In this document: positions 1,259 through 40,389 of the stretch, piece after piece
Layout: the number at the start of each line of letters is the position of its first letter
How positions within the stretch are numbered: position 1 is the first letter of the stretch
DNA from: Novakomyces olei
Lineage: Eukaryota
Length of the DNA stretch: 64,000 nt
Reading direction: 5' to 3'
NCBI GenBank assembly: GCA_016906335.1
Contig: JADEYG010000002.1
Span: forward strand, 124,001-188,000
Program-made: the position numbers and the translations under genes
The notes under the pieces: model-generated
Databases searched by the model: none
What the model was told of the DNA's origin: nothing
What the model saw: the letters and a program-made list of their open reading frames with translations, nothing else

Positions 1259-4200
1259 ATGGTACATTCGCCTTCCTTTTATCGCATTGCGCCAATAGAT
1301 CTGAGCTAATGTCAAGGCGATTACAAAACGCGCGGGCCGTACAAAAGGCCTTCATCATGGCGGAATCGATGCAGCGGCAAAAGGCGGCAAGCAGCAGCCG
1401 GCAGCGGTTAAAAAAGCCGCTTACGAAGCGACAAAGCGGAAAGCCGTCGGTGTCGATGATCTTACGCTCCTGTCGACGATCAGCAACGAGTCAATCAATG
1501 AAAATTTGAAGAAACGGTTCCAGAATGGAGAAATTTATACTTATATCGGCCACGTGCTTATTAGTGTGAACCCGTTCCGTGATTTGGGTATATACACGCA
1601 CGACATTGTCGAGTCTTACAAGGGCAAAAACCGTTTGGAAATGGCGCCGCACGTGTTTGCTATCGCCGAGAGCTCTTACTACCAGCTGAAAGCGTACAAT
1701 GAGAATCAGTGTATCATTATTTCCGGAGAGTCTGGCGCAGGAAAAACAGAGGCAGCCAAACGGATAATGGAGTATATCGCCAGCGCCTCTGAGGGCGGAG
1801 AGGACTCGGCTATCCAGCGAGTGAAGGAGACGATTCTCGCCACCAATCCGCTGCTCGAGTCTTTTGGCTGCGCAAAGACGTTGCGCAACAACAACTCTTC
1901 CAGACACGGAAAGTACCTCGAGATTGAGTTTAGTCGTGCCGGAGCGCCTATGGGCGCTCACGTTATCAACTACCTGCTGGAAAAGGGTAGGATCGTTTCG
2001 CAGATTAAAGACGAGAGGAATTTCCATATTTTTTACCAGTTTACAAAGGCGGCTTCGCAAAGGCACAGGGAAATGTTTGGTATTCAGGGCCCAGAGTCGT
2101 ACGTGTACACGTCACAATCGAAATGCTTCAATGTTGAGGGGATAGATGACAACAAGGACTTTGCTGTTACAACGCAGGCCATGACTACGATTGGCATTAC
2201 GGGTGAGGAGCAGGACGAAATCTTTAGAATGATTGCCATCATTCTGTGGATTGGTAATATTCAGTTTGCAGAAGATGCTGAGGGGAACGCTCAAGTGGCA
2301 GATACTGCAGTTACGGATTTTGTGGCTTATCTGATGGGCGTTGATGCTGCGCTTCTGGTAAAGGCAATAACCATCAGGATTATTGAAACGCAGCACGGCA
2401 TGAGACGGGGCAGTATCTATGACTCGCCGCTGAATAATACTCAGGCTTCGGCAGTACGTGATGCCCTGGCCAAAGGCATTTATAGCAGTCTCTTTGATTG
2501 GCTCTTTGAGCGGGTCAACAAGTCTCTGACTGCGCGCGGTGAGCATACGCAAGTGAACAAGACTATCGGCATCTTGGATATTTATGGGTTTGAAATCTTT
2601 GAACAAAATTCCTTTGAGCAGCTGTGTATCAACTATGTCAACGAAAAGCTGCAGCAAATTTTTATTCAATTGACGCTGAAAACGGAGCAGGAGGAGTACG
2701 TTCGTGAGCAAATTAAATGGACACCGATAAAGTACTTCAACAACAAAGTAGTGTGTGATTTAATTGAGGAGAAGAGGCCGCCCGGAATTTTTGCCGCCTT
2801 GAACGATGCAATTGCCACTGCTCATGCTGATTCAGTAGCGGCGGACAACTCGTTTGCTCAGAGGCTTAATATGCTCTCCTCCAACCCTCATTTTGAGTCC
2901 CGCAGGGCTCAGTTTATTGTGAAGCATTACGCTGGCGATGTTACGTACAATACGGTGGGGATGACAGACAAGAACAAGGATCAATTGCAGAAAGATTTGC
3001 TTGAACTAGTGCAGACTACTAACAACGGCTTTTTGCTCTCTCTGTTTTCCGAGCATATTGATACCAGTTCCAAGCGTCGGCCGCCGACTGCCGGAGACAA
3101 GATCAAACAGTCGGCAAACGATTTAGTGAGCACTCTGATGCAGTGCCAACCGAGCTATATCCGCACAATCAAACCCAACTCTCATCGGTCGCCGACAGAG
3201 TACGACGATCATGCAGTTTTGCACCAGGTAAAGTACCTCGGCTTGCAAGAGAATGTAAGGATCCGCCGTGCCGGGTTCGCCTACCGTCAAACCTTTGAAA
3301 AGTTTGTTGAGCGATTCTACCTGCTCTCTCCCAAGACTTCTTATGCCGGAGAGTATACGTGGAAGGGGGATATGCCCAGTGCAGTGAAGGAAATCTTTAG
3401 GGCAACAAATATACCGGATGACGAGTGGCAAATGGGTGTAACAAAGGCCTTTATTAAACGACCAGAAACCCTATTTGCCCTGGAGGGCATGCGCGACCGG
3501 TACTGGCATACTATGGCCACTCGGATCCAGCGGGCCTGGCGCCGCTACTGCTGCTACCGGAACGAGTGTGCGAGTAAAATACAGAAAATGTGGAGAGAGT
3601 CTAAACGCACTATAAAGTACGTACAGTGGCGGGATAGGGGCAACGAGTTGGTGTACGGGAAAAAGGAGAGACGACGGTTCAGTTTGCTGGGGTACCGAAG
3701 ATTTTATGGGGATTATATTGGCTGCAATTTTCGTGGAGGCATTGGAGAAATGATTTGCAAGGCTACTGGCATCCGTGAACATGTTGAATTCTCTGCCCGC
3801 TGTGACGTTTTGCTGTCAAAGCTCGGCAGATCGAGTAAGCCAGCGCCCCGGCAGTTGATAATGACTCGGCAGACGGTTTACATTGTTGTAACCACCGTGC
3901 ACAATCGGCAGTTGACGCATACAATTGAACGGTCAGTGTCGATCCCGCAGATCAAATACGTGGGCATGACTAACCTGCGGGATGATTGGTTTGCTATCGG
4001 CCTCGGGTCGCTGTCGGAACCCGATCCTTTTGTGTCTTGTGTCTTCAAGACAGAGTTTGCTACCCGCCTTGACGGGTTCAAGTCCGGCGGGCTCAGTCTC
4101 AGGATTGGGCCCACTATTGAGTATGCAAAGAAACCTGGAAAATTGGTGGCCATAAAGGCAGTTAGAGACGAGAGTATTCCCCGCGACGATCATTACAAGA

Positions 4201-12539: not shown

Positions 12540-14751
12540 CTAATCCTCCTTTTTGTCCGCATCAGTGATTTTCCGAATATGGTCTAACATGTTTCGGCCT
12601 TGTTTGATTGCCTCTTTAACACTGGCTGAAGGGGCCACGAGTTTAGCATCGGCAAAAGGCTGCAGAGCTATGGCATCAGAAGTCGCAAGCTTGTCAGCAA
12701 TTTTGGAGCCGTAACCGAACCTTTTCAGCACGTCACGCAAATGGTGACTGCGCAAACGGTAGTCCTCACGTTTGGCTAAGAGCACACTGTTTTGTGGTAA
12801 ACGCTCACAGAATTGCTGAACAGCGTACCTCGCAATAAAAAACAAATGCTCCGACACAAGCGTGATTGCGATTACTTTGGCTAAACTGAAGTTTGTGGGG
12901 TCCCGGCTACCTCCATACAAGTAAATAAGTGCAGAGGAAGTAAGACTTGAGATCCAAACAAGGAGCGAAAGCGTTTCAAGCCAAGGGCCAATTGTCTCTG
13001 TACGTGAAGGTATTGGCCTCCGCACGTTCCCACAAATTGTGGCTGCGTCTCCACGCAACTCAATCGCGTTATGAATCAAATCAATGACTGGAGTTAAGGG
13101 CCATATTACGGAAAACATGACGAGATAACCAAATTGCACAACCATTTGCGCATAATCACCATACGTATTATACGTTTCGAGGCCAGCTTCACGTCTAATC
13201 TTCTTCATAAGCTCTGTTTCTTCCGGAGGATCGGGATACCGCGTTTCGGCCTCTTTTTGTATTTTTTGTTTCAGTTTTTTGGCCTCGGAAAACAAGATTG
13301 ATTGTGCATACGGCATCAAAAGTTTGGTAGCGAAAGCAATGACCTGCGCCGTAACAACGAAGTAAAATAATTGGTTAGAAACGCGACTCGGATTTGCTTT
13401 AAAGGTATGCAGAGGTCTTTTTTCCGACTCTGAGGATGAAAAGGCAGCTAGACCCAGAAGATCGATCTTGGGCATTATTAAATGGCCAAATGGCGTATAG
13501 ACAAAAGCAGCCAAGAACAGTGAAGCAAAAGAGGTTAGAAAATTGACAACAAAAATCTTTCTCGTATAAGAGTTGCTGTAGCTGCCATCTGTTTCATGAT
13601 TTTCGTAAAGCGTCAGGCTCTCACTAATGTGGGAATAGTATTTTGAGAATAGTGGAACGAAAATTGTGAAGAGAATTGTGGGCGAGAATGTCAAGATGCT
13701 CTTTAGCGGGCCCGCGTATACCTTAAAATTAGCATGACGATAATGAAGAAAAAGCTCAAGAAGCACAATTATTGTTGCATTTTCTTACCTCTGAAATATA
13801 GACCTCTACAGAGAAAATAAAAGTCAAAATCCCACCGAGGATCAAAAGACCGGAAAGCGCGAGTGGAAGACTGACGAATTCACGCACTGTACGCTTCCAT
13901 CCCGGAAAAACAGGCTTGATTTCGGTAGTCACAGGATCCGGGGCCTGATATTCGCCCTTGAACAAAGCTCGCCGGGTCTCGATCCGTGAACAGTGGCGTA
14001 CGCCCCAGCGAACGGCCAAATCCAATTCCTTTCTGCGCCAAAGCTCGATGAAAAACAGACCCCAAATAGAAATAAAGATGGAATAAAAAGCGGAATAACT
14101 GCCGCGCAGGAAATACGTAGCAATTCCGACTCCAGCAGGGTAGACAAGGGACCGGAAATAAAATCGAAGAAAAGCGAAATAGAGTGCAACTCTTTCACCA
14201 AAATAATCCCTAATTTCGTCCAAATCAGCATTGTCAACAAACGGCTTTGAGCTCCATTTCTGCAGCCAAGCGTGGTTGAAGTCGTCGTCGTGCAGAGGAA
14301 ATATTGAGGCCACAAAGGCCCAAGGATCATGGCCAGCAACAATACCAGCTCCGCCTTGATTCTTGGGGGCAGAAATAATCTCGTAAATGTACCGCAGTCT
14401 CTCAGCGGGGGACAGATTTGTGTCGGGCAGCACTTCACTGTTACCAGATTCTACAGACTGATCAGATCCATCAGCAGCGATGGGTATAATTTCTGCCTCA
14501 GCGGCTGTCGCTTTGATCCCATACAAATAGTCTTTTTCCCGAGCCGTCATTATAGCACTCGTGAGCCGGTCCGGTGGGCAATACACTAGTATGCCCAAAG
14601 ACACATCGTCCAAAACGCGTACTGAGCATTTGAGACCTGCATCGTAAAGCGTCTGCATAAGCAAATCTAATTGATCATCTTTGCCTTTGAACACAATCAC
14701 GTAATCAGTAACAAACTTGTGCAATCCGCTGCTTCTGCCGCCCTCCGCCAT
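12540..14751 (-). CDS. Anoctamin/TMEM16 (Ist2-like) scramblase or channel
   Basis: Two ORFs joined by intron 13788-13722 (GTAAGA..GCTAATtttAAG). Motifs include SIFPLHD, IRDYFGERVALYFAFL, DYAQMVVQFGY, ELRGDA, RPIPSR and IGPW. Confidence 0.92.
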
Positions 14752-14902
14752 TGTTTCGCTTCACTCCTTGCTTTGCAGACTAATGGCCACGGTGACACGC
14801 ATTTATTTTGTGTACATTTCGTGCCGAGTGGCCTGCGTGCATGACGTCACGTATCCATAATATGTGAGTGTGTGTTGGTACAATAATGATGGATCAAGTA
14901 TT

Positions 14903-16913: not shown

Positions 16914-17612
16914 GCCTTGAAGCTGTCAGGACCGCGACAGACTGAAAAGGTTCCAATTCGAACGAGCAATTGATCCGCTGCCGAGCAATATGCGTATTTA
17001 CCACCAATTGAGTTGCATCTTGTCGGACAGAATTCCTTAGGCTCACGAGTGATCGTTTGCTATACTTTTAAATCTCCAACCAAATTGAAATTAGCTTGTC
17101 GCTTGACTTTGCCAGCTCTGTCATTTAATATTAAAAAAATTACTTATTTTCGCTGTCGTCCGCAATAGCTGTCATCTATTATCATTCAGTTTTATTGACA
17201 AAAGCAGGTACACAGCGCTATAATTATGGTCAAGTATTAATTATATTATATGCATCGACTGGGATCAAGGACATCTAGAAAACAAATACCGCGTTTAATT
17301 GAAAGACATAGAGAATAAATACAAGTATTTCTAGTAATACTGCTATGAGAAATATCTACAGGTTCTAACCCTGCCACGTGATTCCGAGTAGAGAAAGCTA
17401 AAGAGTGTTGTCTTTAACTTTAAGCAGAAAATTAGATTTGATAGTTTGTTTGTGCACTTTTACTTCATCAACACCGAGCATTATGCATACAATCTTGAGC
17501 GGTAACGAAACAAATTGTTATTGGTAATAAAATGAGTATATCTAGAAATAAATCGTAAAAGCCAGGTACCTGTTTCGAAATTAGGGTTAATATTTTATGA
17601 ATAAATGAATAA

Positions 17613-17663
17613 TAAATATTAAATATTAAATATTAAATATTAAATATTAAATATTAAATATTA
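17613..17663. repeat. (TAAATAT)n repeat in the divergent DUF3405/MFS intergenic region
   Basis: Seen directly. Confidence 0.9.
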
Positions 17664-17838
17664 CAAACGACGCAATGCAATGCCGATAGCTTCGTCTCCT
17701 GGATCAGTTCTGTTTGAACATCGAGCAGAGGTCAAGGCGATATGAGACGCGACCTTATTATAAGCTCGCCCCTATCATCGTGCGTCTATACTGGACGTGT
17801 ATTGCATAACGTTGCTTCAAGCACAGATCCGAAGAGAG

Positions 17839-17911
17839 CGGAATAAACGCGGAATAAATTGGGTATTGCCAACTTTAATTGATGATTGAGCAGATACGCA
17901 GCGTCTATAAA
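17839..17911 (+). promoter_or_regulatory. MFS promoter: two CGGAATAA motifs (17839, 17850) and TATAAA (17906)
   Basis: The motifs are read directly; the same motif recurs in the other cluster promoters. Confidence 0.6.
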
Positions 17912-17965
17912 GAAGAATTCCTTCCACATGTCTAAAGAACAGAACCTCCATTGCATGCAAGACCA

Positions 17966-19432
17966 ATGGACTTGCAAGCCAAAGGGCTGTCCAGCTCGGC
18001 GCTCGCGATATCGTCCATACCGCAGCCACCAGAAATCTTGAAAAAAAGCATGTTCAAACGGCCTCGCTTATGTTTGATCAACCGTAGAGCCGATTCCCAT
18101 ACGTACTCGACGCTTGTAAAAAGCCTTATCGTCTTACAAGTCGGCCTATCTGCAATGATGGCCCCCTTTGGTGGCAGTGTGATTCTGCCTGCTGCCGATA
18201 ATGTCGCAAAGTCACTGCACTGCTCGAAGGCTGCTATAAGTATCTCCTACGGCATATACATATTGTCCCTTGGAGTATTCCCGTTATGGTGGTCATCGGC
18301 CTCAGAGCTGTTTGGGAGAAGGATTGTTTATCTTTTGTCTTTTACTATTTACACTGGATTTTCTGTAGCTTGTGCTTTGTCCCAAACAATGGGCCAACTG
18401 ACGGGGTTTCGATTGTGTGCGGGTGGAGCAGCAGCGTCTGTTCAGGCTGTTGGCGCTGGTACAATAAGCGATATCTTTATGCGTGAACAACGAGGCCGCG
18501 CTTTGGGTTATTTTTACCTTGGTCCTCTACTCGGTGCTCTGCTGTCTCCGATATGTGGAGGCATTTTAACGCAGGCTTTTGGCTGGAGATCAACGCAATG
18601 GCTGCTTGTAATCATGGGGGGCTCGCTTTTAATATTCATGGCTCTATTGCTACCGGAAACACTGGCCATGACAGATTTACAAGAGGATCAAAAGCTGCAC
18701 GTTCGTGAAATTATGGAAAGAATCCTTGTCCGGCCTTTGCGAGCATTCAAACTTTTGCGCTTGCCTTCCATTTCGCTCATAATTGCTTGCTCTACTTTTT
18801 GTTATTTCTGCCTGTATTTTTTGACGATATCTATACAGATCACTTATTCTTCCAGCCCGTATGAGTTCAGGCCCTTGATTGTCGGATTGCTATTTATCCC
18901 GAATTCCATTGGCTATGTGATTTCGTCTATTTTGAATGGAATGTATAGCGATTATTTGATCAAGAAAAGGCAGAATAATACTGCAGATTCTCCGGAAAGG
19001 CTGGAAAAATCGCAGCAAGTCAGTGCTCCAGAAGACAGACTCTCGCTTCTTTTTCTTGTTTCTTGCATCGCCTATCCTCTTTCATTGGCTTACTTTGGAT
19101 GGACGGCAAATAAGGGTCTCTTGTGGATTGTTCCTTTGGTCGGAACATTTATTTTTGGTCTTTTTTCCATGGTTATCTTTGGCACTACTATGACGTATTT
19201 AGTCGATATTCTTCCCGGCTCTTCATCTTCAGGTGTCGCCCTAAACAATTTTTTTCGTATGGCATTTGCGGGAATTTCAATTTTTATTGCTAATCCAGCA
19301 ATTGACGCCATCGGTTCGGGTTGGATGTTTACAATATTAGCGGTAGTCGGATTGTGTCTAGTGCCAATTCCGATCATATTAAAGCTAAAGGCACGCACTT
19401 GGCGAAAGATTATACCTTTGAACACCGCTTGA
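17966..19432 (+). CDS. MFS drug:H+ antiporter-1 (Dtr1/Qdr-like) transporter
   Basis: About 12 TM segments, motif A (SELFGRR), GTISDIF..EQRGRALG, GPLLG...GG, GWRSTQW and LPETL. The first in-frame ATG is at 17966. Confidence 0.9.
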   Translation: MDLQAKGLSSSALAISSIPQPPEILKKSMFKRPRLCLINRRADSHTYSTLVKSLIVLQVGLSAMMAPFGGSVILPAADNVAKSLHCSKAAISISYGIYILSLGVFPLWWSSASELFGRRIVYLLSFTIYTGFSVACALSQTMGQLTGFRLCAGGAAASVQAVGAGTISDIFMREQRGRALGYFYLGPLLGALLSPICGGILTQAFGWRSTQWLLVIMGGSLLIFMALLLPETLAMTDLQEDQKLHVREIMERILVRPLRAFKLLRLPSISLIIACSTFCYFCLYFLTISIQITYSSSPYEFRPLIVGLLFIPNSIGYVISSILNGMYSDYLIKKRQNNTADSPERLEKSQQVSAPEDRLSLLFLVSCIAYPLSLAYFGWTANKGLLWIVPLVGTFIFGLFSMVIFGTTMTYLVDILPGSSSSGVALNNFFRMAFAGISIFIANPAIDAIGSGWMFTILAVVGLCLVPIPIILKLKARTWRKIIPLNTA

Positions 19433-19920
19433 AGATCCTTTTGAATTTTGGCAAAATAGGGGATTCAGGTGGGAGTGAACAAAACAAGGAACGAAACAGA
19501 GCTAATTGGGGAATGAACAATTTTTATTAGAAACAAAGTAAAGATTTGAAAACAAAAAATAATTTGGTGATATCAACTTTGTGGTTGTTTGAAATGCATC
19601 AATGTAGATAGATATATTTTGTCAAGGCGCCGATTTAGATTTTAATAAAAGGTACGGTATTAGCCAATTGTGGTTACTTTACAATCACTTGGAAAATTAC
19701 CAATTATTTCTGGCTTCCATGAAACGAACTGAACATTAATATACGCGCAGCAAAAGCAGTAGCCTGCAAATGTCTGTAGATTTTATTTTATTTTATTTTA
19801 AGGTTATTATGAAAAGAACACTAGGCTTGCTTCTAATCCTATGATGGAACTAATGTTATGAAATAATGACCTTTAATGAATATTATCGAAAAACGAAATA
19901 TTAACTATTTAATACTATGC

Positions 19921-21921
19921 CTAATCTACCATCCTTTTGCTCTCGGTAATATCCGATTTCAAATTTACGGAAGAAACCCGCTCAGGAGCTTCCGAGCCGA
20001 CGACCATTTTTGGGACTTTGCCTGTGGCAATATATCGACAGACCTGCACGATCGAAGACCAGCTCTCGTATATAGGAAAAACAATAATGTAGATTGTCAC
20101 CAAAATGAGCCAAACGAAAATGATAACAATCCACGCGGTGAACATGGGTTTCGAGCACGTCCATTTCGAACCGTAAATGGGCATGGGCAAGATAATCATA
20201 GTCACAAGGAGATAGGAAACGGCAATCCATCGGCCCCAAACAACGGTGCTCTTGAGCCGTTTGTACTCTTTACCATAAACATCTATTTCCATAGCAGCAA
20301 GTTCTTCTGCCGTAGCATCATTGGCAGCAGTAAACTTGTGTATTAAAGCAGCCTCCTCCAAATGGCCCGGTCGAAACAACGACAATACAAGAGCGTAAAT
20401 TGGGCCAGACAGTAGGGCAACAAAATTTGCAGTCAGTGTGGCATTCGGATTGACTAGTGTGTGCACATTTAGAGACCCATCGGGAGAGAAGTGGTAGGCA
20501 GATCCAATCCAAACTGCCACCCCAGTAGCCGTTCCCAACGGAGCACCAATCACGAGACCCCATTTGTTCATGCGCCGCCAAAAAACAGTCATTACAAGAA
20601 CCGGGACAGAAGGCGCCAAGATAATGCCTTTAAAAGAAATAATCCAGCCGACATTTACCCCCACATAGTTAAACCAGGTGGCAAACGAGCCCATAATGGC
20701 GCCAAAAGCAATAACACAGAAATGCGAGACCCAAACCAGCGTCTTCCCGGAAGCCATTTTATCGTAGTATTCCCGGTACAAATCATATGTACAAATAGAC
20801 GAGAAGGCCACCAGTTCTGCCGACATGGCTGAAGTTACAGACATAAAGAGCATTACAAGTGCTGCTGCGGCCCCGCTTGTGCCAAACATGGCCGCCATGC
20901 CATAGAATAAAGGCATGCCGGCAGCTGCTTGACCCGGAGTCAATACGTGCGGGTAGCTAAAGAGAACCGGGTTGTTCAAAAGAGCACGGGTGGCAAGACC
21001 AGCAGAGCTGCCCAGGGACCAGGGAATTATGAACCAGCAAACACCGCCCAGCAAATAACCCTTAAACACTCCATGAGCAGAGGCAGAAATAGCCTTTTGT
21101 CCATAGCTCGGGTCACCAAAGACGGTCACAAAGCCACCAATAAGAGCAGACCAGGCAGTTTTAACTACAGCGGAATTGCTCATGGTCAAGTAGCTGCCTC
21201 CATGTCCAGAACTTGGGTGCAGGGCGGCCGCCTGCTCCAATAAATCATACATTCGGGCCGGTGAGCCGATACTGTTTGAAGTTGTGTACACGGCAAACAT
21301 TGTGCACAGGATAATAATGTAAATAATGACAGTATGGATCCAGTCGGAGATAAAAGTAGCCTTTATGCCACCAAACACAGTGTAAAAAGTTACGCCAACA
21401 GGGAGCAAAAGGCACCCGGCCACAACGTGCATCCCGGTGGCATTGGCAAAGCCCTGGGCACCGCCTAGCAACAGAGTAGCCGCCACCATAATATTAACGG
21501 CGAGACAGTAGCAGAGGTAGACAATGTGGCCGGCTCTGCCAAAGCGAGCGCGGACAATTTCGGCCACTGTATGAGCGCCAGGCGCGACTAGCTTCATCTC
21601 AACAGCCAAACAGGCAAAGCAGACAACTTGGACCGATCCGATCATAGCGTACCAGTAAACACCAGCAACTCCGTATGTATAGCTCCAATTTCCAGACAGC
21701 AAAAAGGTCGCTGGCCACGCCCAACTGGAAACAACCGCGGACGAAATCAAACCTGTTTTGACTGATCGAGAAGCAGTTGTAAACTGCTCCGAGTCTTGTA
21801 CTTCGCCAGTATAGCGCTTGAGAATCCACGTTATCCCGACCATCATTAGGGCAAAAGCACCTCCCAGCGCCAGTGCAAACGTATACCCATAGACTTGGCC
21901 CAGGATGTAAGCTTGAGGCAT
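19921..21921 (-). CDS. DUR3: Dur3-like urea/polyamine transporter, sodium:solute symporter family
   Basis: 666-aa intronless ORF with ASRSVKTGLISSAVVSSWAWPAT, APGAHTVAEIVRARFG, GGIKATFISDWIHT and FMSVTSAMSAELVAFSSICTYDLYR. Confidence 0.9.
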   Translation of the reverse strand: MPQAYILGQVYGYTFALALGGAFALMMVGITWILKRYTGEVQDSEQFTTASRSVKTGLISSAVVSSWAWPATFLLSGNWSYTYGVAGVYWYAMIGSVQVVCFACLAVEMKLVAPGAHTVAEIVRARFGRAGHIVYLCYCLAVNIMVAATLLLGGAQGFANATGMHVVAGCLLLPVGVTFYTVFGGIKATFISDWIHTVIIYIIILCTMFAVYTTSNSIGSPARMYDLLEQAAALHPSSGHGGSYLTMSNSAVVKTAWSALIGGFVTVFGDPSYGQKAISASAHGVFKGYLLGGVCWFIIPWSLGSSAGLATRALLNNPVLFSYPHVLTPGQAAAGMPLFYGMAAMFGTSGAAAALVMLFMSVTSAMSAELVAFSSICTYDLYREYYDKMASGKTLVWVSHFCVIAFGAIMGSFATWFNYVGVNVGWIISFKGIILAPSVPVLVMTVFWRRMNKWGLVIGAPLGTATGVAVWIGSAYHFSPDGSLNVHTLVNPNATLTANFVALLSGPIYALVLSLFRPGHLEEAALIHKFTAANDATAEELAAMEIDVYGKEYKRLKSTVVWGRWIAVSYLLVTMIILPMPIYGSKWTCSKPMFTAWIVIIFVWLILVTIYIIVFPIYESWSSIVQVCRYIATGKVPKMVVGSEAPERVSSVNLKSDITESKRMVD

Positions 21922-22177
21922 GGCGAAAAGACGTAGACGCTTTTATTTTATTTTATTTTATTTAATTGTTTTTTCGCAATTAATCGGTCAGTCTGCTGGT
22001 CTGCAAAGAAGCAGCCTGAATAGTCGCAGCCGAGCTTTTGTCCATCGAGAGCAGTCAGAGGTCTATATACCCGACGAAACTGTCTTTTGGCTGATACAGC
22101 GGCCAGAACGATCGTTTTACGTTTTCTGTTTTCGAGGTTTTTTTCTTTTAGGATTTTTACGTTCTTTCCCCATAGGG

Positions 22178-22287
22178 CTTATCTTATTGCGCATACCTGT
22201 CAAAAGTCGTCGCCGATAAGAGACGGAATAATCACGGAATAATCGCGGAATAATCACGGAATATATACAGTTTGCAGAGTTGATAAG
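22178..22287. promoter_or_regulatory. Divergent DUR3-like/TF promoter: four CGGAATA motifs at an 11-bp period plus GATA sites
   Basis: CGGAATA at 22224, 22235, 22246 and 22257; GATAAG at 22215 and 22282; CTTATC at 22178. Confidence 0.7.
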
Positions 22288-22358
22288 GGTGTTGGACGGT
22301 TCGCGCGACTAAACTCTTGAATTGCTTCGCTTGCAATTGGGATTTTCCGCTGGTGCGA

Positions 22359-24548
22359 ATGCCGCGAAGCACAAGCGACTCTGAGCCGGGTTCGTTGACA
22401 AAATTTCCAAAACGGTCGGGGAAAGCATGTGAAAACTGCAGGCGACGAAGAATCAAGGTGTGCCTATTGCTTTTGTGCCTATTTCTTTTGTGCTCATTAC
22501 TTTGTGCCTATTACTTTTGCATTGCCTATTGCTGACTTGGATGTAGTGCTCGGGAGGCGGACAGGTGTGTTGTAATTGCCTCAAGCTTAATATCCGCTGT
22601 ACTTATCGTCCGTCTTACAGAGCGAAAAGCGGCAATGGCTCACGGCTGCGTTCAAGGTACATTCTGGTATATGAGTTTGCTTTCTGACGGCTTTTAAGTT
22701 CGGAATCAGCAGACGATTTGGCGCAGCCGATCAATGCGCACCGCAATAGTAGCGTAGGCAGTGATGACGCATCGAAATCGCCATATTATGGTATGGAACA
22801 TGAGCAATTGCACATACCGTTTCCGTTTCTTATTCTCCTATTCAGAGTATTGCTCGCGTGTGACCTCTTTCCTTGACCCCCAACTTTGCGTACTTTATTC
22901 TTCTTATTTTCATGGCGCACTAATGGTATTAGGCCCGTCTAGCCATCGCTATTTCTTGTCAAAGCTATACTCTTACATGAACGCACGCAACCCTCAGAGT
23001 AACGCGTTCAAAAAGTTCCTCTCGCAGCCCAATCCTGAAACGAGCACTACAACCCAGAATGAAAATTATATGGCTAGCATCGAGCTTGATGAGCTAGAGA
23101 TGCTCCAGGTCCTGAAAAACTCGTTTCAAGGCTTTGATTTGATTATAGCTTTGGTGGACCAAGAACAGTATGAAGCAACTGCATCACGGTTGTGGCAAAC
23201 AAAATCACAGATTGCCGATGGGAAAAAGAGCTCGGAACTCTCGCTTTTATTTGCCATGATATGCCTTGGGTTAAGTATGAACTGTTGCCAGTCATTTATA
23301 AGGGAAATTCATCGCAGCGTTTGGCTCTCCGTGTACATGAAGCGGGCACAAACCCGGCTGCCTTCGATGCTTGATACTTTTGATGTGACTACGGTCCAGG
23401 CGTACATTTTATGCAGCATTCTTCTTATTTTTCAGGCACACAATGACTCTGCTTACTTGTACGTGGGCTGTGCTGTGAGAATGGCAATTGCTCTGGGATT
23501 TCATAGTATAAACGTGCACAAAACTGAAATTGCGCAAATTCAGGCTGCTGGCCATAGGACCTGGGTGGCGTGCTGTGTCTGGGAAAACATGATCTCTATA
23601 ATCATGGGCCGACCGAGCATTAGCGCCAAAATTGCAATGGCTCCTTTTGTTGGCGACGCGTTCGAGCAAGTTGGTCTATCTGCGGGGCACGTACGTGTGC
23701 GGTACTTGTACGTGACAAAAATCGTAGATCGAATAAACTCTATATACAATGACGCCGAGGGCCAGAGTGATTTGGTGCACGTGTACACATCCGTTTGTAA
23801 TGTTGCGCAAGATATGGAAGCCATACTTGACGAGGCTCCATTGCATTTACGGATTAAAGACGTCAACGAGTTGGCCACGGTTAATGACGAACAATGCCGA
23901 GAATGGTTTTGGATACGGCTACTCTACCTTCAAATCAAGCTGATCATGCTTCGGCCTTTTCTTGTGTTTTCTATGTATTTCAATGGCAAGAGCGACGATC
24001 AGCTAGATCCGCAAGTTCAGAATCTGATAAGAATTGGCCGTGAAGAGTGCCTGGAGACGGCTATATCGATTCCTAAGCTTTTGAGAATGGTGGCACATAG
24101 AATTGCACAATTCCAGCATCACTGGTTTGCCTGCAGATATGTGGAGCCGGCAGCCATGATTTTGTTTTTCTACATTTTGACAAGCCCGGCAAGCATATCG
24201 GACGCTCTTGCTTTTCGGATTAGCTCTGCTCTCACCGACGCGTGCTCGTACATCGGTGTTGAAGCCGACGCAGTCCCTGTCGTTGCCCAGTCAAAGACTG
24301 TTGTTACAGACGCATTAAATTCTCTGCAAAGTTTGAGGGAAACGCAACTGTCCTTTGATGATTCCTACCTGCGATCTTTCTTTGCTACAGCTTCGACTGA
24401 AAGCGCCGGGCAAGACGCTTCCCTACGATTTTCAAATGAAGAACCCTTGAGAAACGATGGCATCAATGTCCATTTGGACACAGAAATCTGGGACACGGAG
24501 AGTTTTTGGCTGCAGACTTTGAGTATTCTGGGGTTCAATCAGGCCTGA
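22359..24548 (+). CDS. Zn(II)2Cys6 transcription factor with a fungal-specific middle homology region
   Basis: The zinc cluster is split by intron 22458-22546 and reads CENCRRRRIK|CSGGGQVCCNCLKLNIRC. Further introns lie at about 22657-22698 and 22791-22932. These are followed by YYGPSS, AVRMAIALGFH, RTWVAC and MGRPS. Confidence 0.92.
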
Positions 24549-24927
24549 TTTAATTTATTCCCTTCTCGAATCTGTTGGTTAGTATTATTTGTTGTGCATA
24601 TTTAGTCTTGTTCTTGGTCGTTTGCGGCCAATAACATTTGTTTAATGATATCGAATCAGTCGGCCTGCTTTCGCTCCTGCTGCACGAGCGCTACAGCCTT
24701 CTCCATAAAAAATCAAATACTTGGATTATGTACAATATGAGCCCGATAGGGTTGGTTCACTATATAACTTATGTAAAGGTGAAAGGTGGGCGTTGTAGGT
24801 TTAAGTGGGATGCAGACAGTGAGTACTCAATGGTCTCGCGATAGCCAATCGAGTTTGTTCCCTTTACCAATGTTCTTCCTTTACCAATGATTATCCAATC
24901 GATTACTGTTTGTGACAAATAGACGTA

Positions 24928-25117
24928 CCGGCAATGTCCATTGCCGGAAAATATAAATTTAATGTTATCACAGATTATTCCGCTGCACTGCCGCGGTTAT
25001 TCCGCGCTTGTGTTTATAGTATTCCGCGATAAGAAAATGCGATAAGACGCGATAAGACGCGACAAGAAGCGAAAAGACGGAGGCGGCGCTTCTTTGATTG
25101 AAGCGTCAGTATAAATA
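24928..25117 (+). promoter_or_regulatory. Amidase promoter: CGG-N12-CCG palindrome, three TATTCCG motifs, three GATAAG sites and a TATA box
   Basis: CCGGCAATGTCCATTGCCGG at 24928-24947; TTATTCCG at 24975 and 24997 and GTATTCCG at 25019; GATAAG at 25028, 25041 and 25051; TATAAATA at 25110. Confidence 0.7.
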
Positions 25118-25146
25118 CAGCACTTTGAACACATTGTATTACTGAC

Positions 25147-27002
25147 ATGTCAAGCATGACAAAGCCGTCTTGGGAGCAGATTGCTTTGGGAAAAAGGCAG
25201 GCGCTCTACGAGCGAATCCCTGTGGGATGGCGACTCGACAATGTTCCATCTCCGCAAGATGCGCCCAGTACGGATGCGTACTTGGACTCTATTCTGGCCG
25301 AAAACGAAGTAGCCATAGTGCACTTGTCGGCAAATCAGCTGCTTGAACGAATGGGGACGGGCAGACTAAGCGCGGTCGATGTGTGTAAGGCGTTTTGCCA
25401 CCGCGCGGCTCTTTGCCACCAGCTAGTAAGCCATTCAATTCAAAATAAAAAACTTTTCCAAGCCACAAATGGCTCTGCAAACTACTCTGCCATGCTCTGA
25501 TATGCTCTTATCGCCCAGCCTGACACGCTAGACAAACTGCTTGAGCGAGATATTCTTTGATGACGCTCTCCAGCATGCGGATCAATTGGATCATTATTTC
25601 AGACAGCACGGAGAGATGATGGGGCCGCTTCATGGGCTTCCCATATCTTTGAAGGTAACCCGAAAAAAATAAAAATAAAGCAAAATAAAGCAAATATTTT
25701 GCTAGCCACTAACATTGTCAGGACCAGTTTAACGTTGCGGGTGTAGAGACATCATTGGGAATTGTGGGCCTGTTAGGGAACCCGGTTGCCGTCGAAAACG
25801 AATCGCTTCTCGTTAAAATTATGCGTGAAAATGGTGCAATATTGTTTGTTAAAACAACAGTTCCAATGGCGATGATGTCGGCCGATACATTTTCAAACAT
25901 TCATGGGCATACTGTGGCTTCTTTTAACCGCACATTGTCATCGGGTGGAAGTTCCGGAGGCGAGGCGACACTTGTTGCCTCTCATGGAGCAGTGGCAGGG
26001 TGGGGCACGGATTTGGCAGGAAGCGTGCGTATTCCCTGCACTTTTCAAGGACTTTATGGCCTTCGTCCCAGCACTGGCCGAATTCCATACTGGAATGTTG
26101 CGAATACGAATGAAGGGCAGCCAGTTATGCCCTCCGTTATAGGACCAATTGCTAGATCAATTGATGAAATTGAGCTGTTGATGAAATGCGTTATGGATTC
26201 ACATCCTTGGATGTACGATGCTAAATTGTCTCCATTGAATTGGAAAACTTTGGACCACAACAAGGAACATATTACGTTTGGAGTCTTGCGGTGGAATGGA
26301 ATAGTCATGCCTCATCCCCCGGTGCAGAGAGCAGTCGCCGAATGTGTAAGGGCGCTTGAGACAGCGGGACAAAGCGTCTTGGAGCTGGATCCACCTGACT
26401 TTATTCCTGATATAATCAAATGCGCAGGCGAGCTATTATCGGCCGATCAGATGGAGTGCTTGTTGCGACTTTGTGACCTTACAGAGGAGCCAGTTATTCC
26501 TCAAATACGAAAACTAAAAGCGCATGCAATGGGCAAGAACGCAAAGGATATATCGATAGCAGAATACTGGGAGATGGCGGAACGACGATACCATTTGCAG
26601 CAAAAATTCATTGATTTCTGGAATGACACGGCAGCCAAAACTGCAAGCAAAAGACCAATCGATGTCTTAATTTGCCCTGCTTGGGAGATGACGGCTTTCA
26701 GGCCTGGAGAGGCAGCGGCGACGCGCACAATGTACACAATCTTGCAAAACTTTATGGACTTTTGCGCAATTTCCTGTCCCGTTACTTGTGCTGACAAGAA
26801 CAAAGACTGTCTGTCTATCAATTATACTCCCACAAATGAGCTTGACAAAGCGGTTCAGGAAATGTATGATGCCAGCCAAAGTCATGGGAGCCCTGCTGGC
26901 GTTCAACTGTGCGGCAGAAGGCACCAAGAAGAACTGCTTATTAGCGCCACGCGCGTTCTGGAAAACGCTCTTAATCACAATAATGGGAGCGAAAATGTTT
27001 AG
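25147..27002 (+). CDS. Amidase-signature enzyme (acetamidase AmdS/Amd2-like)
   Basis: Exons 25147-25425, 25532-25654 and 25722-27002. The catalytic triad motifs GPLHGLPISLK|DQF, GGSSGGE and GTDLAGSVRIP are all intact. Confidence 0.93.
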
Positions 27003-28116
27003 AAGTCCATTATAATCTGTCAGATTGCCCGCAGTTTGGCAATGCGAGAACAGAGTGACAAATTAGGGTGAACACTGAGAACAAGGTGAAAATGTACATG
27101 GTGCGAGATGTGGGTTTACGGAATGATAGAGCAGCAAGAAACACTGGTTAAATATCATAAACTAGCCTTTACTGGCAAAGACCACTAGTTTGATTGAAAA
27201 CTGGATCTAGTTGAACTTGTAACGACAAAATTCTCGTGTCGCGTCAAAGAAATTAAAGCATGAAAGGCTATAATGGGCATGTATGTTTTGACTTGGATTC
27301 TTGACTTGGATTTTGAACGTGTGCAATTGAACAAAAGTCAAATATTGATTGTCTGTATTTAATATAATTTCTTCCCACTAATGAGCAAGGCAGAGAAAGT
27401 ATAGACAGTTTAGACACAATGGTTCCATTATGAGAGGTTTGTCAGTGGGAAAGAAATTAAACGAAACTAGCACCTAAGCGTCTACAGCTAAATGGGCTCA
27501 GGCGGCTGACGACTTTTGCATTTGAAGATCGATTAATTCAAACTAATTTGCTTCAACCCCGGCTCATAAACATCCTGTCCACCGGTAAATTTCGTGTAGG
27601 TCTCTACAACAGAATGAGCACTTATATACGACAGGCGTTCCTAGTGTCGGATCGCCAAAGCTACTGCACAGATATATGAGTGAATAAATAAATGTATCAT
27701 CGATCAAACTCGTATGTCTACGCGTCCCATTGCGAAGGCACTTTGAGCGTAATCCACAAAAGACGTAAATACCAAAACCGTAAATACTAAAAAAAAAGAC
27801 TCACAGGCTTTTCGGTCGTTGACAGTCGTCGATCAGATCCAGTATTCCACTCTTACTTGCCAATGCTACAAGTAATTGTTCATGCATATCGGACAACATT
27901 GCTCTTTTTCATACAATGTAATCCCAATTTCATTATTTCTGCATTATATTAAAGAGAAAACAGAAAACCAGCGGACACGCACAAGATATAAAATAGAATA
28001 AAAATAAATTAAATAAATAAATTAAATAAAATAGATAGAATAAATAAAATAAAATCAACTAGAAAAAATAAAATAAAAATAAAATAAAAATAAATAAATA
28101 AGCGTCGAGGACGGCA

Positions 28117-39182: not shown

Positions 39183-39448
39183 TTTCTCGGAAAGAACTGC
39201 CGCCCAGGCCGCACTGGATTTCGGCTCTCTTTTGAGCGGAACAAGCTCGATATCACCGTCAATTTTGGAAGTAGGCCTCGAGTGTCGGCTTCCTAGGGAC
39301 AATTAAGGATGCTGTCTTTGTTCTCCTGATAATCAAGCTAAACCAATTAGAAACACTGGCAAAGGCCTGATAACCATATAGTGAGTGGCTTCAATGTGAT
39401 CTTGCAGCCAATTCGCAATATGTAGATAGATATTTACAGCGATATAGG

Positions 39449-39469
39449 AATAATAATAATAATTATTAA

Positions 39470-39523
<54 letters not shown>
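39449..39523. repeat. (TAA)n/(TTA)n microsatellite in a divergent intergenic region
   Basis: Seen directly. Confidence 0.9.
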
Positions 39524-39524
<1 letters not shown>

Positions 39525-40389
39525 TTATTAACTTTAATATCTAATTTTAGACAATTATTCATTTGAATAATGCGGAATAATGTAGACTGAGACCATTATC
39601 TATCTGTTAGAGCAATATTCACAAAAGCACGTGCGTGCTAGCGCAAGAGAAATCAAACGCGAACTCGCAGTGAGCGTCGATCAATATAATGTCTCACTAA
39701 TAAAGTCAAGAAAATATGGCGCTTAACCAAGACTATCGATTTTTTCTCCGCAACATCTGCATTTAGATTAACGCCGAGCTTAAAGAGTCTTTCATAATAA
39801 GAATGTTCCGGATTTCGACGGGCAAACTTTGTGGCATAACGTTTTGACAATCGTGTAAAACGATTAATCGGAGGATTAATAGGAGATTTTTGGTGTTATT
39901 TCACATATACGATGCAGCCATATTATAGTTAAACGTTTTATATATTGTTATACTGTAATGTCTTTTATGGCTTTGTATTATAATGTCTTAAAATATGGTT
40001 TACATTACGGCCAAGTCAAGCAGATAAACCGCATTCGGACAGCTCGGGAAATGTCAATCCATGGTTCTTTAGACGTGTCTGGTACATTACAGTGGGAACG
40101 TTCATAGCAGAGCAGTAAAGTCTGCGTTTAAACACCTTTTCCAATTACAATAGATTAAGATCGCGAGTAGTGGTCAAATGTATATCCTTATCGGCGCGTA
40201 TGCCACATATCCTATTACCGATAACGACAGGTCCGAAATTAAACCTCGGCTATCTCAAAATAATTATGAATTCTACTCTTAAAACTTAAAAGTACGTCAA
40301 TCGTGAACATGGTAATATAATTAATTAATACTGCTACGGTAGCCACATACGCTGCGAAACCATAAAGTCTCAACTGACACACAGCACAC

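What the first reader, a model, noticed from the sequence alone, without database searches (positions are those of the whole stretch)
17800..27002. Candidate self-regulated nitrogen-scavenging cluster: MFS, Dur3-like symporter, Zn2Cys6 factor and amidase
Seen in sequence: four adjacent genes (MFS +, Dur3-like -, Zn2Cys6 +, amidase +) are set off by about 1 kb of gene-free DNA on each side, among otherwise housekeeping genes. All four are served by promoters carrying the same clustered CGGAATA motif. Established: amidase-signature enzymes hydrolyse amides, Dur3-family symporters import urea or polyamines, Zn2Cys6 factors bind CGG triplets, and GATAAG sites mediate nitrogen catabolite repression. 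Inference: an importer, hydrolase, exporter and local activator module for an unknown amide, ureide or guanidino-amide nitrogen source. I do not know of this combination being characterised.
Basis: partly seen in the sequence, partly recalled or inferred. Interest (0 to 1): 0.85.

Follow-up and report, generated by a model that had tools for sequence, protein, structure and literature searches.

The report
Conserved yeast amidase, transporter and regulator cluster
Four neighbouring yeast genes (two transporters, an amide-splitting enzyme and their probable own regulator) share a repeated promoter motif, and three of them are also neighbours in fission yeast and Pichia, so this looks like a real but unstudied module for using a small amide as a nitrogen source.

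Summary
Window 17.8-27.0 kb carries four intact genes:
- an efflux-type MFS transporter (+)
- a Dur3-family symporter (-)
- a Zn2Cys6 factor (+, three introns, 638 aa)
- an amidase-signature enzyme (+, two introns, 560 aa)

About 1 kb of gene-free DNA lies on each side.

CGGAATA(A) is the top k-mer shared by the three promoters (9 seen, 0.26 expected). It sits in arrays spaced 11 or 22 bp apart. GATAAG clusters lie in two of the three promoters.

The combination is not unique. Symporter, amidase and factor are consecutive genes in S. pombe (SPBPB8B6.02c, fah1, grt1) and in three Komagataella species. Symporter and amidase share 11 unnamed short contigs and are divergent neighbours in 3 metagenome loci.

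The symporter clade keeps DUR3's tryptophan pair and proton-coupling residues. It replaces two urea-contacting residues (N305 to G, Y461 to I/L). The amidase's closest solved relative by sequence is a yeast urethanase.

Best reading: a conserved, uncharacterised catabolic cluster for a small amide or carbamate. The local Grt1-family factor probably activates it, under nitrogen catabolite repression. Expression, regulator dependence and substrate are untested. It is a new member of a known kind, of moderate interest.

The parts
17838..17858 (+). Two direct CGGAATAA copies 11 bp apart, 110-127 bp upstream of the MFS ATG. A TATAAAG lies at 17906-17912.
   Evidence: TRF: 11-bp unit x1.9
17966..19432 (+). 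MFS_1 transporter, 488 aa, no intron. Efflux-type: QDR3-like by language-model features, and Bcr/CflA-like by NCBIfam below the curated cut-off.
19921..21921 (-). Dur3-family proton/solute symporter paralogue, 666 aa, no intron. Its pocket differs from DUR3 at N305 (G), W316 (G) and Y461 (I).
22223..22263 (+). Array of four CGGAATA(A) copies with an 11-bp period in the divergent symporter/factor promoter. GATAAG lies at 22215 and 22282, and CTTATC at 22178. The last copy overlaps a TATATAC 95 bp before the factor's ATG.
   Evidence: TRF: 11-bp unit x3.7
22359..24548 (+). Grt1-family Zn2Cys6 transcription factor, 638 aa. Exons 22359-22457, 22547-22656, 22699-22790 and 22933-24548. The six-cysteine cluster is at residues 24-51, followed by a Fungal_trans domain.
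24928..24947 (.). Perfect 20-bp palindrome (CGG-N12-CCG type), the only exact copies in the window. It could be a second zinc-cluster site. Function unknown.
24976..25026 (-). Three CGGAATA copies 22 bp apart, in the opposite orientation to the gene, 121-171 bp upstream of the amidase ATG. The middle copy lies within a CGG-N5-CCG inverted repeat.
25028..25079 (+). Three GATAAG sites (25028, 25041, 25051), the last two inside a 10-bp tandem array that also holds two degenerate copies. They are probable GATA-factor (nitrogen catabolite repression) sites. A TATAAATA lies at 25110-25117.
   Evidence: TRF: GCGATAAGAC x4.1 at 25039-25079
25147..27002 (+). Amidase-signature enzyme of the Amd2/Fah1/AmdS/urethanase group, 560 aa. 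Exons 25147-25425, 25532-25654 and 25722-27002. The Lys (LKD at 133), GGSSGGE (209) and nucleophile-Ser (229-239) motifs are intact.

Best explanation
This is one copy of an evolutionarily conserved, functionally uncharacterised yeast catabolic cluster.

**Core parts**
- A Dur3-family proton symporter paralogue with a widened, less polar substrate pocket.
- A cytosolic amidase-signature hydrolase of the Amd2/Fah1/urethanase group.
- A Grt1-family Zn2Cys6 factor.

**Proposed working (inferred)**
1. The symporter imports a small urea-like amide or carbamate. Candidates are urea with one NH2 replaced by an alkyl or alkoxy group, such as short-chain amides or ethyl carbamate.
2. The amidase releases ammonium from it.
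3. The efflux-type MFS, recruited in this lineage, removes the acid or alcohol by-product or excess substrate.
4. The local factor binds the CGGAATAA arrays in all three promoters. The 11- or 22-bp spacing puts the sites on one face of the helix. Its own promoter is included, which would give positive feedback.
5. GATA factors acting at the GATAAG clusters restrict expression to poor-nitrogen conditions.

**Shown**
- Intact genes.
- The shared, highly non-random motif arrays.
- Conserved linkage of the trio.
- The pocket substitutions.
- The enzyme family.

**Inferred**
- Who binds the motif.
- Induction and autoregulation.
- The substrate class.
- The role of the MFS.
For: **Motif**
- CGGAATA: 9 seen against 0.26 expected in 1601 bp of the three promoters. 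It is the top shared 7-mer.
- 19 copies in the window against 7.55 in shuffles.
- 0 of 300 simulated windows had three or more clusters.
- The amidase copies have unrelated spacers, so they are not one slipped repeat.

**Linkage**
- S. pombe: CAD27908, CAD27909 and CAD27910 are the symporter, Fah1 and Grt1.
- K. phaffii: CAY70322, 70323 and 70324.
- K. pastoris: BA75_00297, 00298 and 00299.
- K. kurtzmanii: LJB42_003008, 003009 and 003010.
- C. boidinii: factor g270 beside amidase g271.
- Kuraishia: symporter and amidase have adjacent locus tags.
- 14 of the 120 listed symporter hits share a contig length with a listed amidase hit. Eleven of those contigs are 4.8-80 kb.
- 5 of the 10 best factor clusters are linked to an amidase or a symporter.
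- The amidase lies divergently beside the symporter in L001, L003 and L004. That is 3 of the 5 metagenome loci with usable flank.
- Linked pairs fall in matching groups in the symporter and amidase trees (FastTree).

**Symporter pocket, against AtDUR3 (PMC11840088, passages read)**
- Kept: W93, W95, T98, Y117, Q124, H222, D312, Y315, W338, P342 and E402.
- Changed: N305 to G and Y461 to I.
- None of the 104 close-clade rows (window included) keeps Y461 (L/I/M instead). All 13 distant rows keep N and Y.
- The paper reports that Y461A almost abolishes urea transport.

**Amidase**
- The catalytic motifs are intact.
- The best solved match by sequence is 8wv2 (E 8.7e-59), titled urethanase from Candida parapsilosis.

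**Factor**
- It aligns end to end with Grt1 (27% identity, E 8e-62).
Against: - No expression data could be obtained, so co-regulation is unproven.
- No assay links this factor to CGGAATAA. Another zinc-cluster protein could bind it.
- The word CGGAATA is absent from the amidase-symporter intergenic DNA of L001, L003 and L004. L001 instead carries GTCGGA arrays. The cis-code is therefore not conserved in those distant relatives.
- The genome is rich in short tandem repeats, so part of the array structure comes from slippage.
- The trio is not universal:
  - Homologues lie on different scaffolds in Pachysolen, in three Lachancea species and in Sugiyamaella.
  - The Kuraishia factor homologue is about 535 locus tags away from the pair.
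- MFS linkage outside this genome was not testable.
- The MFS promoter has no GATAAG.
- The substrate is only inferred. S. cerevisiae and K. phaffii are used with the foreign amdS acetamide marker (recalled, from no call). That argues against acetamide as the natural substrate of at least the Komagataella cluster.
Confidence: 0.6

Rival explanations
1. This is a polyamine or acetyl-polyamine catabolic module. The Dur3 paralogue imports polyamines or their N-acetyl derivatives. The QDR3-like MFS balances polyamine levels. The amidase deacetylates an acetamido intermediate such as 4-acetamidobutyrate, yielding GABA.
For: - A source names the Komagataella symporter homologue a 'plasma membrane transporter for both urea and polyamines'. 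This is annotation only.
- The MFS resembles QDR3-type antiporters.
- K. phaffii amidase PAS_chr3_0283 rises together with primary amine oxidases in formaldehyde-dissimilation knockouts (PMC9103059, passage read).
- A 4-acetamidobutyrate deacetylase activity in Candida boidinii grown on putrescine is recalled from older literature, from no call.
Against: - No amine oxidase, acetyltransferase or aldehyde dehydrogenase gene lies in or beside the cluster.
- The closest solved enzyme by sequence acts on a small carbamate.
- The pocket keeps the tight tryptophan pair of urea transporters.
- My one literature search for the deacetylase gene found nothing useful.
Confidence: 0.15
2. The genes are co-regulated, but by a factor encoded elsewhere that recognises CGGAATAA. 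The neighbouring Grt1-like factor is then only another target, or it regulates other genes.
For: - The motif-to-factor link is purely positional.
- The factor family evolves fast (25-32% identity).
- The factor is not always linked to the pair (Kuraishia and Sugiyamaella).
- The amidase promoter holds a second, different zinc-cluster-type palindrome.
Against: - Linkage of the factor with the amidase and/or the symporter recurs in 5 of the 10 best factor clusters across very distant yeasts. This is the usual signature of a pathway-specific regulator.
- CGG-containing repeats are the expected site type for a Zn2Cys6 protein (established knowledge).
Confidence: 0.15
3. The symporter is an ordinary urea importer, and the neighbouring genes are functionally unrelated. 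Adjacency and motif arrays would be by-products of tandem-repeat instability.
For: - Databases name the symporter homologues urea transporters.
- The region is rich in minisatellites.
Against: - The same 8-mer occurs in three separate promoters, at 7 seen against 0.13 expected.
- Linkage is conserved in many genomes.
- The trees of linked pairs are congruent.
- Y461 is replaced in all 104 close-clade rows.
Confidence: 0.05

Closest known systems
S. pombe subtelomeric trio SPBPB8B6.02c (urea active transporter 2), fah1 (SPBPB8B6.03) and grt1 (SPBPB8B6.04c); also K. phaffii PAS_chr3_0282, 0283 and 0284
   Same: - The same three protein families sit as consecutive genes.
- The window's factor aligns end to end with Grt1 (E 8e-62).
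- The symporter is 47% identical and the amidase 41% identical to the S. pombe proteins.
- The S. pombe symporter carries the same clade signature at the DUR3 pocket (G-S-L).
   Different: - Gene order differs. Accession order in S. pombe and Komagataella is symporter, amidase, factor. Here it is MFS, symporter, factor, amidase.
- The window adds an MFS gene carrying the shared motif.
- The window's locus lies among housekeeping genes rather than at a subtelomere (the S. pombe location is recalled).
- I found no functional study of the S. pombe or Komagataella genes. They appear only in expression lists.
DUR3 urea/proton symporters (solved plant structures 9j7c, 9vim, 9x5u; ScDUR3)
   Same: - Same fold family (E 4.5e-119 to 9.3e-114).
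- The tryptophan pair, Y117, Q124, Y315, W338 and the proposed proton-coupling residues D312, E402 and H222 are all kept.
   Different: - N305 becomes G, W316 becomes G, and Y461 becomes I.
- Y461 is L, I or M throughout the close clade. The 13 distant fungal hits keep N, Y or F, and Y, like plant DUR3.
- Substrate not tested.
Candida parapsilosis urethanase (8wv2), yeast 'fatty acid amide hydrolase' (6kvr) and the Aspergillus AmdS acetamidase group
   Same: - Amidase-signature fold with an intact Ser-cisSer-Lys motif set.
- Model against 6kvr: Z 42.7, rmsd 2.0 over 401 residues.
- Model against 8wv2: Z 38.1, rmsd 2.1 over 398 residues.
- Proteins named acetamidase from Aspergillus are 37-39% identical.
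   Different: - Only 30-31% identical to the solved yeast enzymes.
- In the tree the window enzyme sits on a long branch at the base of the yeast clade, apart from the Pezizomycotina sequences.
- Its substrate is unknown.
Fungal nitrogen-catabolic clusters with a pathway-specific Zn2Cys6 activator and GATA-factor control (for example S. cerevisiae DAL/DUR, A. nidulans amdS with AmdR and AreA, nicotinate hxn cluster; recalled, from no call)
   Same: - A transporter, a hydrolase and a local zinc-cluster factor.
- CGG-type repeated sites next to GATAAG clusters.
- A divergent promoter shared by two of the genes.
   Different: - The gene set, factor family and motif differ (direct CGGAATAA repeats at 11 or 22 bp).
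- The inducer and substrate are unknown.

Membership tests
DUR3 subfamily of sodium/solute symporter (SSS) transporters | SSS fold and close sequence similarity to solved DUR3 | tested here: met
   PF00474 at E 9.4e-23. 9vim at E 4.5e-119 over residues 6-634.
DUR3 subfamily of sodium/solute symporter (SSS) transporters | Tryptophan pair plus Y117, Y315 and W338 around the substrate, and the proton-coupling residues D312, E402 and H222 | tested here: met
   All are kept in the window protein. Each is kept in 111-117 of 117 aligned rows. Residue roles come from PMC11840088.
DUR3 subfamily of sodium/solute symporter (SSS) transporters | Urea hydrogen-bonding side chains N305 and Y461 | tested here: not met
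   The window has G263 and I428. None of the 104 close-clade rows has Y at the Y461 position. The 13 distant rows have N and Y. It is therefore a DUR3-family paralogue, not shown to be a urea transporter.
Amidase-signature (AS) enzymes | Ser-cisSer-Lys catalytic set within the Gly/Ser-rich signature | tested here: met
   LKD at 133, GGSSGGE at 209 and GTDLAGSVRIP at 229. PF01425 at E 7.9e-73. AF2 model at pLDDT 85.6, Z 42.7 to 6kvr.
Yeast Amd2/Fah1/urethanase group of AS amidases | Groups with yeast Amd2-like proteins rather than with other AS subfamilies | tested here: met
   Best hits are Sugiyamaella Amd2p, Komagataella and Pachysolen at 42-43% identity. A 31-row yeast clade including the window has support 100 in a FastTree tree.
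Yeast Amd2/Fah1/urethanase group of AS amidases | Activity on ethyl carbamate, acetamide or other small amides | not testable with these tools
   Needs an enzyme assay.
Grt1-family Zn2Cys6 transcription factors | N-terminal CX2CX6CX6CX2CX6C cluster plus a fungal-specific transcription factor domain, collinear with Grt1 | tested here: met
   Six-cysteine pattern at residues 24-51. PF04082 at E 3.5e-12. Blastp to Grt1 covers 13-630 against 3-643, E 8e-62. Grt1's cluster is the third best of 1.84 billion representatives.
Grt1-family Zn2Cys6 transcription factors | Known DNA motif or known targets | not testable with these tools
   None is reported in the papers I could search.
DHA1-type MFS efflux transporters (QDR/AQR/TPO-like) | MFS_1 domain with drug:H+ antiporter-type similarity | tested here: inconclusive
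   PF07690 at E 3.9e-38. Language-model neighbours include 'MFS antiporter QDR3' at 0.99. The NCBIfam Bcr/CflA match at 91.8 bits is below the 303-bit cut-off. No orthology test was run.
Fungal catabolic gene cluster with a pathway-specific regulator | Physical linkage conserved across genomes | tested here: met
   Trio in S. pombe and three Komagataella species. Pairs in C. boidinii and Kuraishia, on 11 short contigs and in 3 metagenome loci. Unlinked in Pachysolen, Lachancea and Sugiyamaella.
Fungal catabolic gene cluster with a pathway-specific regulator | Shared cis-element in all member promoters | tested here: met
   CGGAATA arrays lie in all three promoters of this genome. They are not conserved in L001, L003 or L004.
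Fungal catabolic gene cluster with a pathway-specific regulator | Co-expression and dependence on the local regulator | not testable with these tools
   No usable RNA data. Needs RNA-seq and a regulator deletion.
Nitrogen-catabolite-repressed (GATA-factor) promoters | Clustered GATAAG sites upstream of the genes | tested here: inconclusive
   Three sites lie within 30 bp upstream of the amidase and three in the divergent promoter. The MFS promoter has none, and the window as a whole shows no enrichment (30 copies).

The most novel reading that the evidence does not exclude
**The clade.** The Dur3-paralogue clade with L, I or M at the Y461 position is not a set of urea transporters. It is a family of proton symporters for small mono-substituted urea analogues, such as short-chain amides or alkyl carbamates like ethyl carbamate.

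**The unit.** The symporter is inherited as a unit with a dedicated amidase and a Grt1-family regulator. It appears in Schizosaccharomyces, where both trees place it among Pichia-type yeasts (possible cluster transfer), and in budding yeasts.

**What the window adds.** Its CGGAATAA arrays would then give the first DNA motif and first biological role for the orphan Grt1 family. They would also assign a function to fah1, SPBPB8B6.02c and PAS_chr3_0282 to 0284.
Probability: 0.35. Interest if true: 0.65.

Novelty: new member of a known kind. Interest (0 to 1): 0.5.

Why it matters
If right, the finding would do four things.

- **Orphan genes.** It gives a testable function to genes that sit unstudied in two workhorse yeasts: S. 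pombe grt1, fah1 and SPBPB8B6.02c, and K. phaffii PAS_chr3_0282 to 0284.
- **Transporter clade.** It splits the fungal 'urea transporter' family into true DUR3 and a distinct clade with an altered pocket.
- **Regulatory code.** It offers a concrete cis-regulatory code that can be checked by gel shift or reporter assays.
- **Applied interest.** The closest solved enzyme by sequence is a urethanase, so the module may bear on removing ethyl carbamate from fermented drinks.

It is not a new kind of system. Clusters of transporter, hydrolase and zinc-cluster activator under GATA control are classic fungal biology.

Tried and rejected
- **Whole genome.** None is held for this window. The rest of the regulon and the organism's identity could not be examined.
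- **Factor search.** The word-based homologue search found nothing. The all-against-all HMMER search then found the family.
- **RNA evidence.** No RNA holder is listed among 4 runs. There is therefore no expression data and no strain comparison.
- **Earlier notes of this scan.** Nothing by place, genome, words or sequence.
- **Motif in relatives.**
  - CGGAATA is absent from the amidase-symporter intergenic DNA of L001, L003 and L004.
  - Two CGGAAT cores each in L001 and L004 are about what chance gives.
  - L001's GTCGGA arrays are a different word.
- **Lone copy.** The single intergenic CGGAATAA at 39573 sits in AT-rich repeat DNA and was set aside as chance.
- **TEA/Tec1-type sites.** CATTCY was considered from memory and rejected, because the reverse complement here is TATTCC.
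- **Literature.** The ten searches found no functional study of the trio, no known Grt1 motif and no cloned yeast 4-acetamidobutyrate deacetylase.
- **Not run.** Complex prediction, because no protein-protein claim is made.

Full report
**What is there**

The window is from an intron-containing ascomycete yeast whose proteins have no close relative in the databases searched. Best identities are 43% for the amidase, 53% for the symporter and 32% for the factor.

Between 17.8 and 27.0 kb lie four intact genes.

- **MFS_1 transporter.** 17966-19432 (+), 488 aa.
- **SSF symporter.** 19921-21921 (-), 666 aa.
- **Zinc-cluster factor.** I resolved it as join(22359..22457, 22547..22656, 22699..22790, 22933..24548). 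It is 638 aa, with three GT..AG introns of 89, 42 and 142 bases. A CX2CX6CX6CX2CX6C cluster sits at residues 24-51, followed by a Fungal_trans domain.
- **Amidase.** join(25147..25425, 25532..25654, 25722..27002), 560 aa, with the Lys, GGSSGGE and nucleophile-Ser motifs intact.

The flanks are gene-free for about 1.04 kb on one side and 1.1 kb on the other. They run to a DUF3405 gene and to an Aa_trans amino-acid transporter gene. Further out are myosin-1, exportin-5, anoctamin and an SPX protein.

**The motif**

CGGAATA occurs 19 times in the window, against 7.55 in shuffles. Nine of the 19 lie in the three promoters that serve the four genes:

- Two direct copies 11 bp apart upstream of the MFS.
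- Four copies with an 11-bp period in the divergent symporter/factor promoter.
- Three copies 22 bp apart, in the opposite orientation, upstream of the amidase.

None of 300 Markov-1 simulated windows had three clusters, and none had a group larger than two. Without any prior, CGGAATA (9 seen, 0.26 expected) and CGGAATAA (7 seen, 0.13 expected) are the most enriched words shared by all three promoters.

Of the 12 CGGAATAA copies in the window, 7 are in these promoters. Four lie inside long ORFs, and one is a lone copy in AT-rich repeat DNA.

Two of the arrays are formally tandem repeats (11-bp unit x1.9 and x3.7), and the genome is rich in minisatellites. Slippage probably multiplied the sites. 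The amidase copies, however, have unrelated spacers, and the same word seeds three separate promoters.

GATAAG is not enriched overall (30 copies). Three copies lie within 30 bp next to the amidase sites, beside and in a 10-bp tandem array. Three more lie in the divergent promoter, and none in the MFS promoter.

**Comparative evidence**

Several lines agree.

- **Shared contigs.** Among the 120 best amidase hits and the 120 best symporter hits, 14 symporters share their contig length with an amidase. Eleven of these are unnamed contigs of only 4.8-80 kb.
- **S. pombe.** Exact look-ups show three consecutive records: CAD27908 (urea active transporter 2), CAD27909 (Fah1, PB8B6.03) and CAD27910 (Grt1).
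- **Komagataella.** Consecutive records or locus tags occur in K. phaffii, K. pastoris and K. kurtzmanii.
- **Other named yeasts.** The factor and amidase are adjacent in C. boidinii. The symporter and amidase are adjacent in Kuraishia.
- **Factor family.** It is small and fast-evolving: 16 representatives at E 1e-10 or better among 1.84 billion. Five of its ten best clusters are linked to an amidase or a symporter.
- **Metagenome loci.** A scan returned 7 loci. In 3 of the 5 with usable upstream flank (L001, L003, L004) an amidase lies divergently beside the symporter.
- **Trees.** Quick FastTree trees of both proteins place the linked pairs in matching groups. The window's proteins sit on long branches at the base of the yeast clade.

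Linkage is not universal. The homologues are on different scaffolds in Pachysolen, three Lachancea species and Sugiyamaella. The Kuraishia factor homologue is far from the pair.

**What the proteins say about the substrate**

*Symporter.* It is clearly of the DUR3 family (E 4.5e-119 to a solved DUR3). I mapped it onto Arabidopsis DUR3, using residue roles from passages of PMC11840088.

- **Kept:** the tryptophan pair, T98, Y117, Q124, Y315, W338, P342 and the proposed proton-coupling residues D312, E402 and H222.
- **Changed:** N305 to G, W316 to G and Y461 to I.

Across 117 aligned sequences, none of the 104 close-clade rows has Y at the Y461 position (L, I or M instead). All 13 distant Pezizomycotina and Saitoella hits keep N and Y. 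The paper reports that Y461A almost abolishes urea transport. The clade has therefore lost two polar urea contacts and gained space and hydrophobicity.

*Amidase.* It belongs to the yeast Amd2/Fah1 group. Its best solved sequence match, 8wv2 (E 8.7e-59), is titled urethanase from Candida parapsilosis. The model (pLDDT 85.6) superposes on 6kvr at Z 42.7 and on 8wv2 at Z 38.1.

Together these suggest a small urea analogue in which one amino group is replaced by a non-polar group. This is inference, not a result.

*MFS.* It looks like an efflux-type carrier. It is tied to the module only by position and two motif copies.

**Mechanism proposed**

1. The Grt1-family factor binds the phased CGGAATAA repeats and activates all four genes.
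2. Its own gene is among them: the last repeat overlaps a TATA-like element 95 bp before its ATG.
3. GATA factors at the GATAAG clusters impose nitrogen catabolite repression.
4. The symporter imports the amide, and the amidase frees ammonium.
5. The MFS disposes of the by-product.

I see no obvious heptad coiled coil after the zinc cluster (inspection only). That would fit monomer binding to direct repeats.

**Rivals**

- A polyamine or acetamido-acid pathway. Leads are the annotation, the QDR3 likeness, and co-induction of the K. phaffii amidase with amine oxidases (PMC9103059).
- Regulation by a factor encoded elsewhere.
- Coincidence. The statistics and the conserved linkage make this unlikely.

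**Literature**

Ten full-text searches found the S. pombe and K. phaffii genes only in expression or fitness tables.

- All three S. pombe genes appear in a table of genes differentially expressed in an Mst1 acetyltransferase mutant (PMC2823694).
- grt1 appears in TOR and nutrient screens and in a polyphosphate study.

I found no study of their function, substrate or DNA motif. Supplements were closed.

**Verdict**

The thing is a conserved, uncharacterised member of a familiar kind of fungal catabolic cluster. Expression, regulator dependence and substrate remain to be tested.

Noticed in passing
relatives: P0162, P0025 (S. pombe) against P0163, P0109 (C. boidinii) and Pichia: In both quick trees the S. 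pombe symporter and the S. pombe amidase nest among Pichia-type budding yeasts (local support 97 and 96) rather than outside Saccharomycotina. This is a lead for transfer of the whole cluster into Schizosaccharomyces. These are FastTree trees only, with no topology test.
   Followed up: partly
L001:2135-2175, 2720-2747, 3263-3283: The amidase-symporter intergenic region of this metagenome yeast carries three clusters of GTCGGA repeats at a 7-8 bp period. One lies near each gene and one in the middle. The architecture is analogous to the window's, but the CGG word is different.
   Followed up: partly
window 22459-22519; 17608-17663; 39440-39525; 27988-28101: The genome is rich in short tandem repeats in introns and intergenic DNA. 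Examples are a 15-bp unit x4.1 inside the factor's first intron, AATATTA x8, and a long ATT run. The transcription-factor site arrays seem to have grown by the same process.
   Followed up: partly
window 24928-24947: A perfect 20-bp palindrome of CGG-N12-CCG type lies 30 bp upstream of the amidase CGGAATA sites. These are the only exact copies in the window. It may be a site for a second zinc-cluster dimer.
   Followed up: partly
window 12540-14760 (-): The anoctamin/TMEM16 homologue is split over two overlapping long ORFs (12540-13784 and 13756-14760). This is presumably an intron or a frame change. Not examined.
   Followed up: no
window 56459 and 61100 (-): Two further CGGAATA copies share the same seven preceding bases (GTATGCA) plus a purine. 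One lies inside a long ORF. Possibly a coincidence or a small repeat.
   Followed up: no
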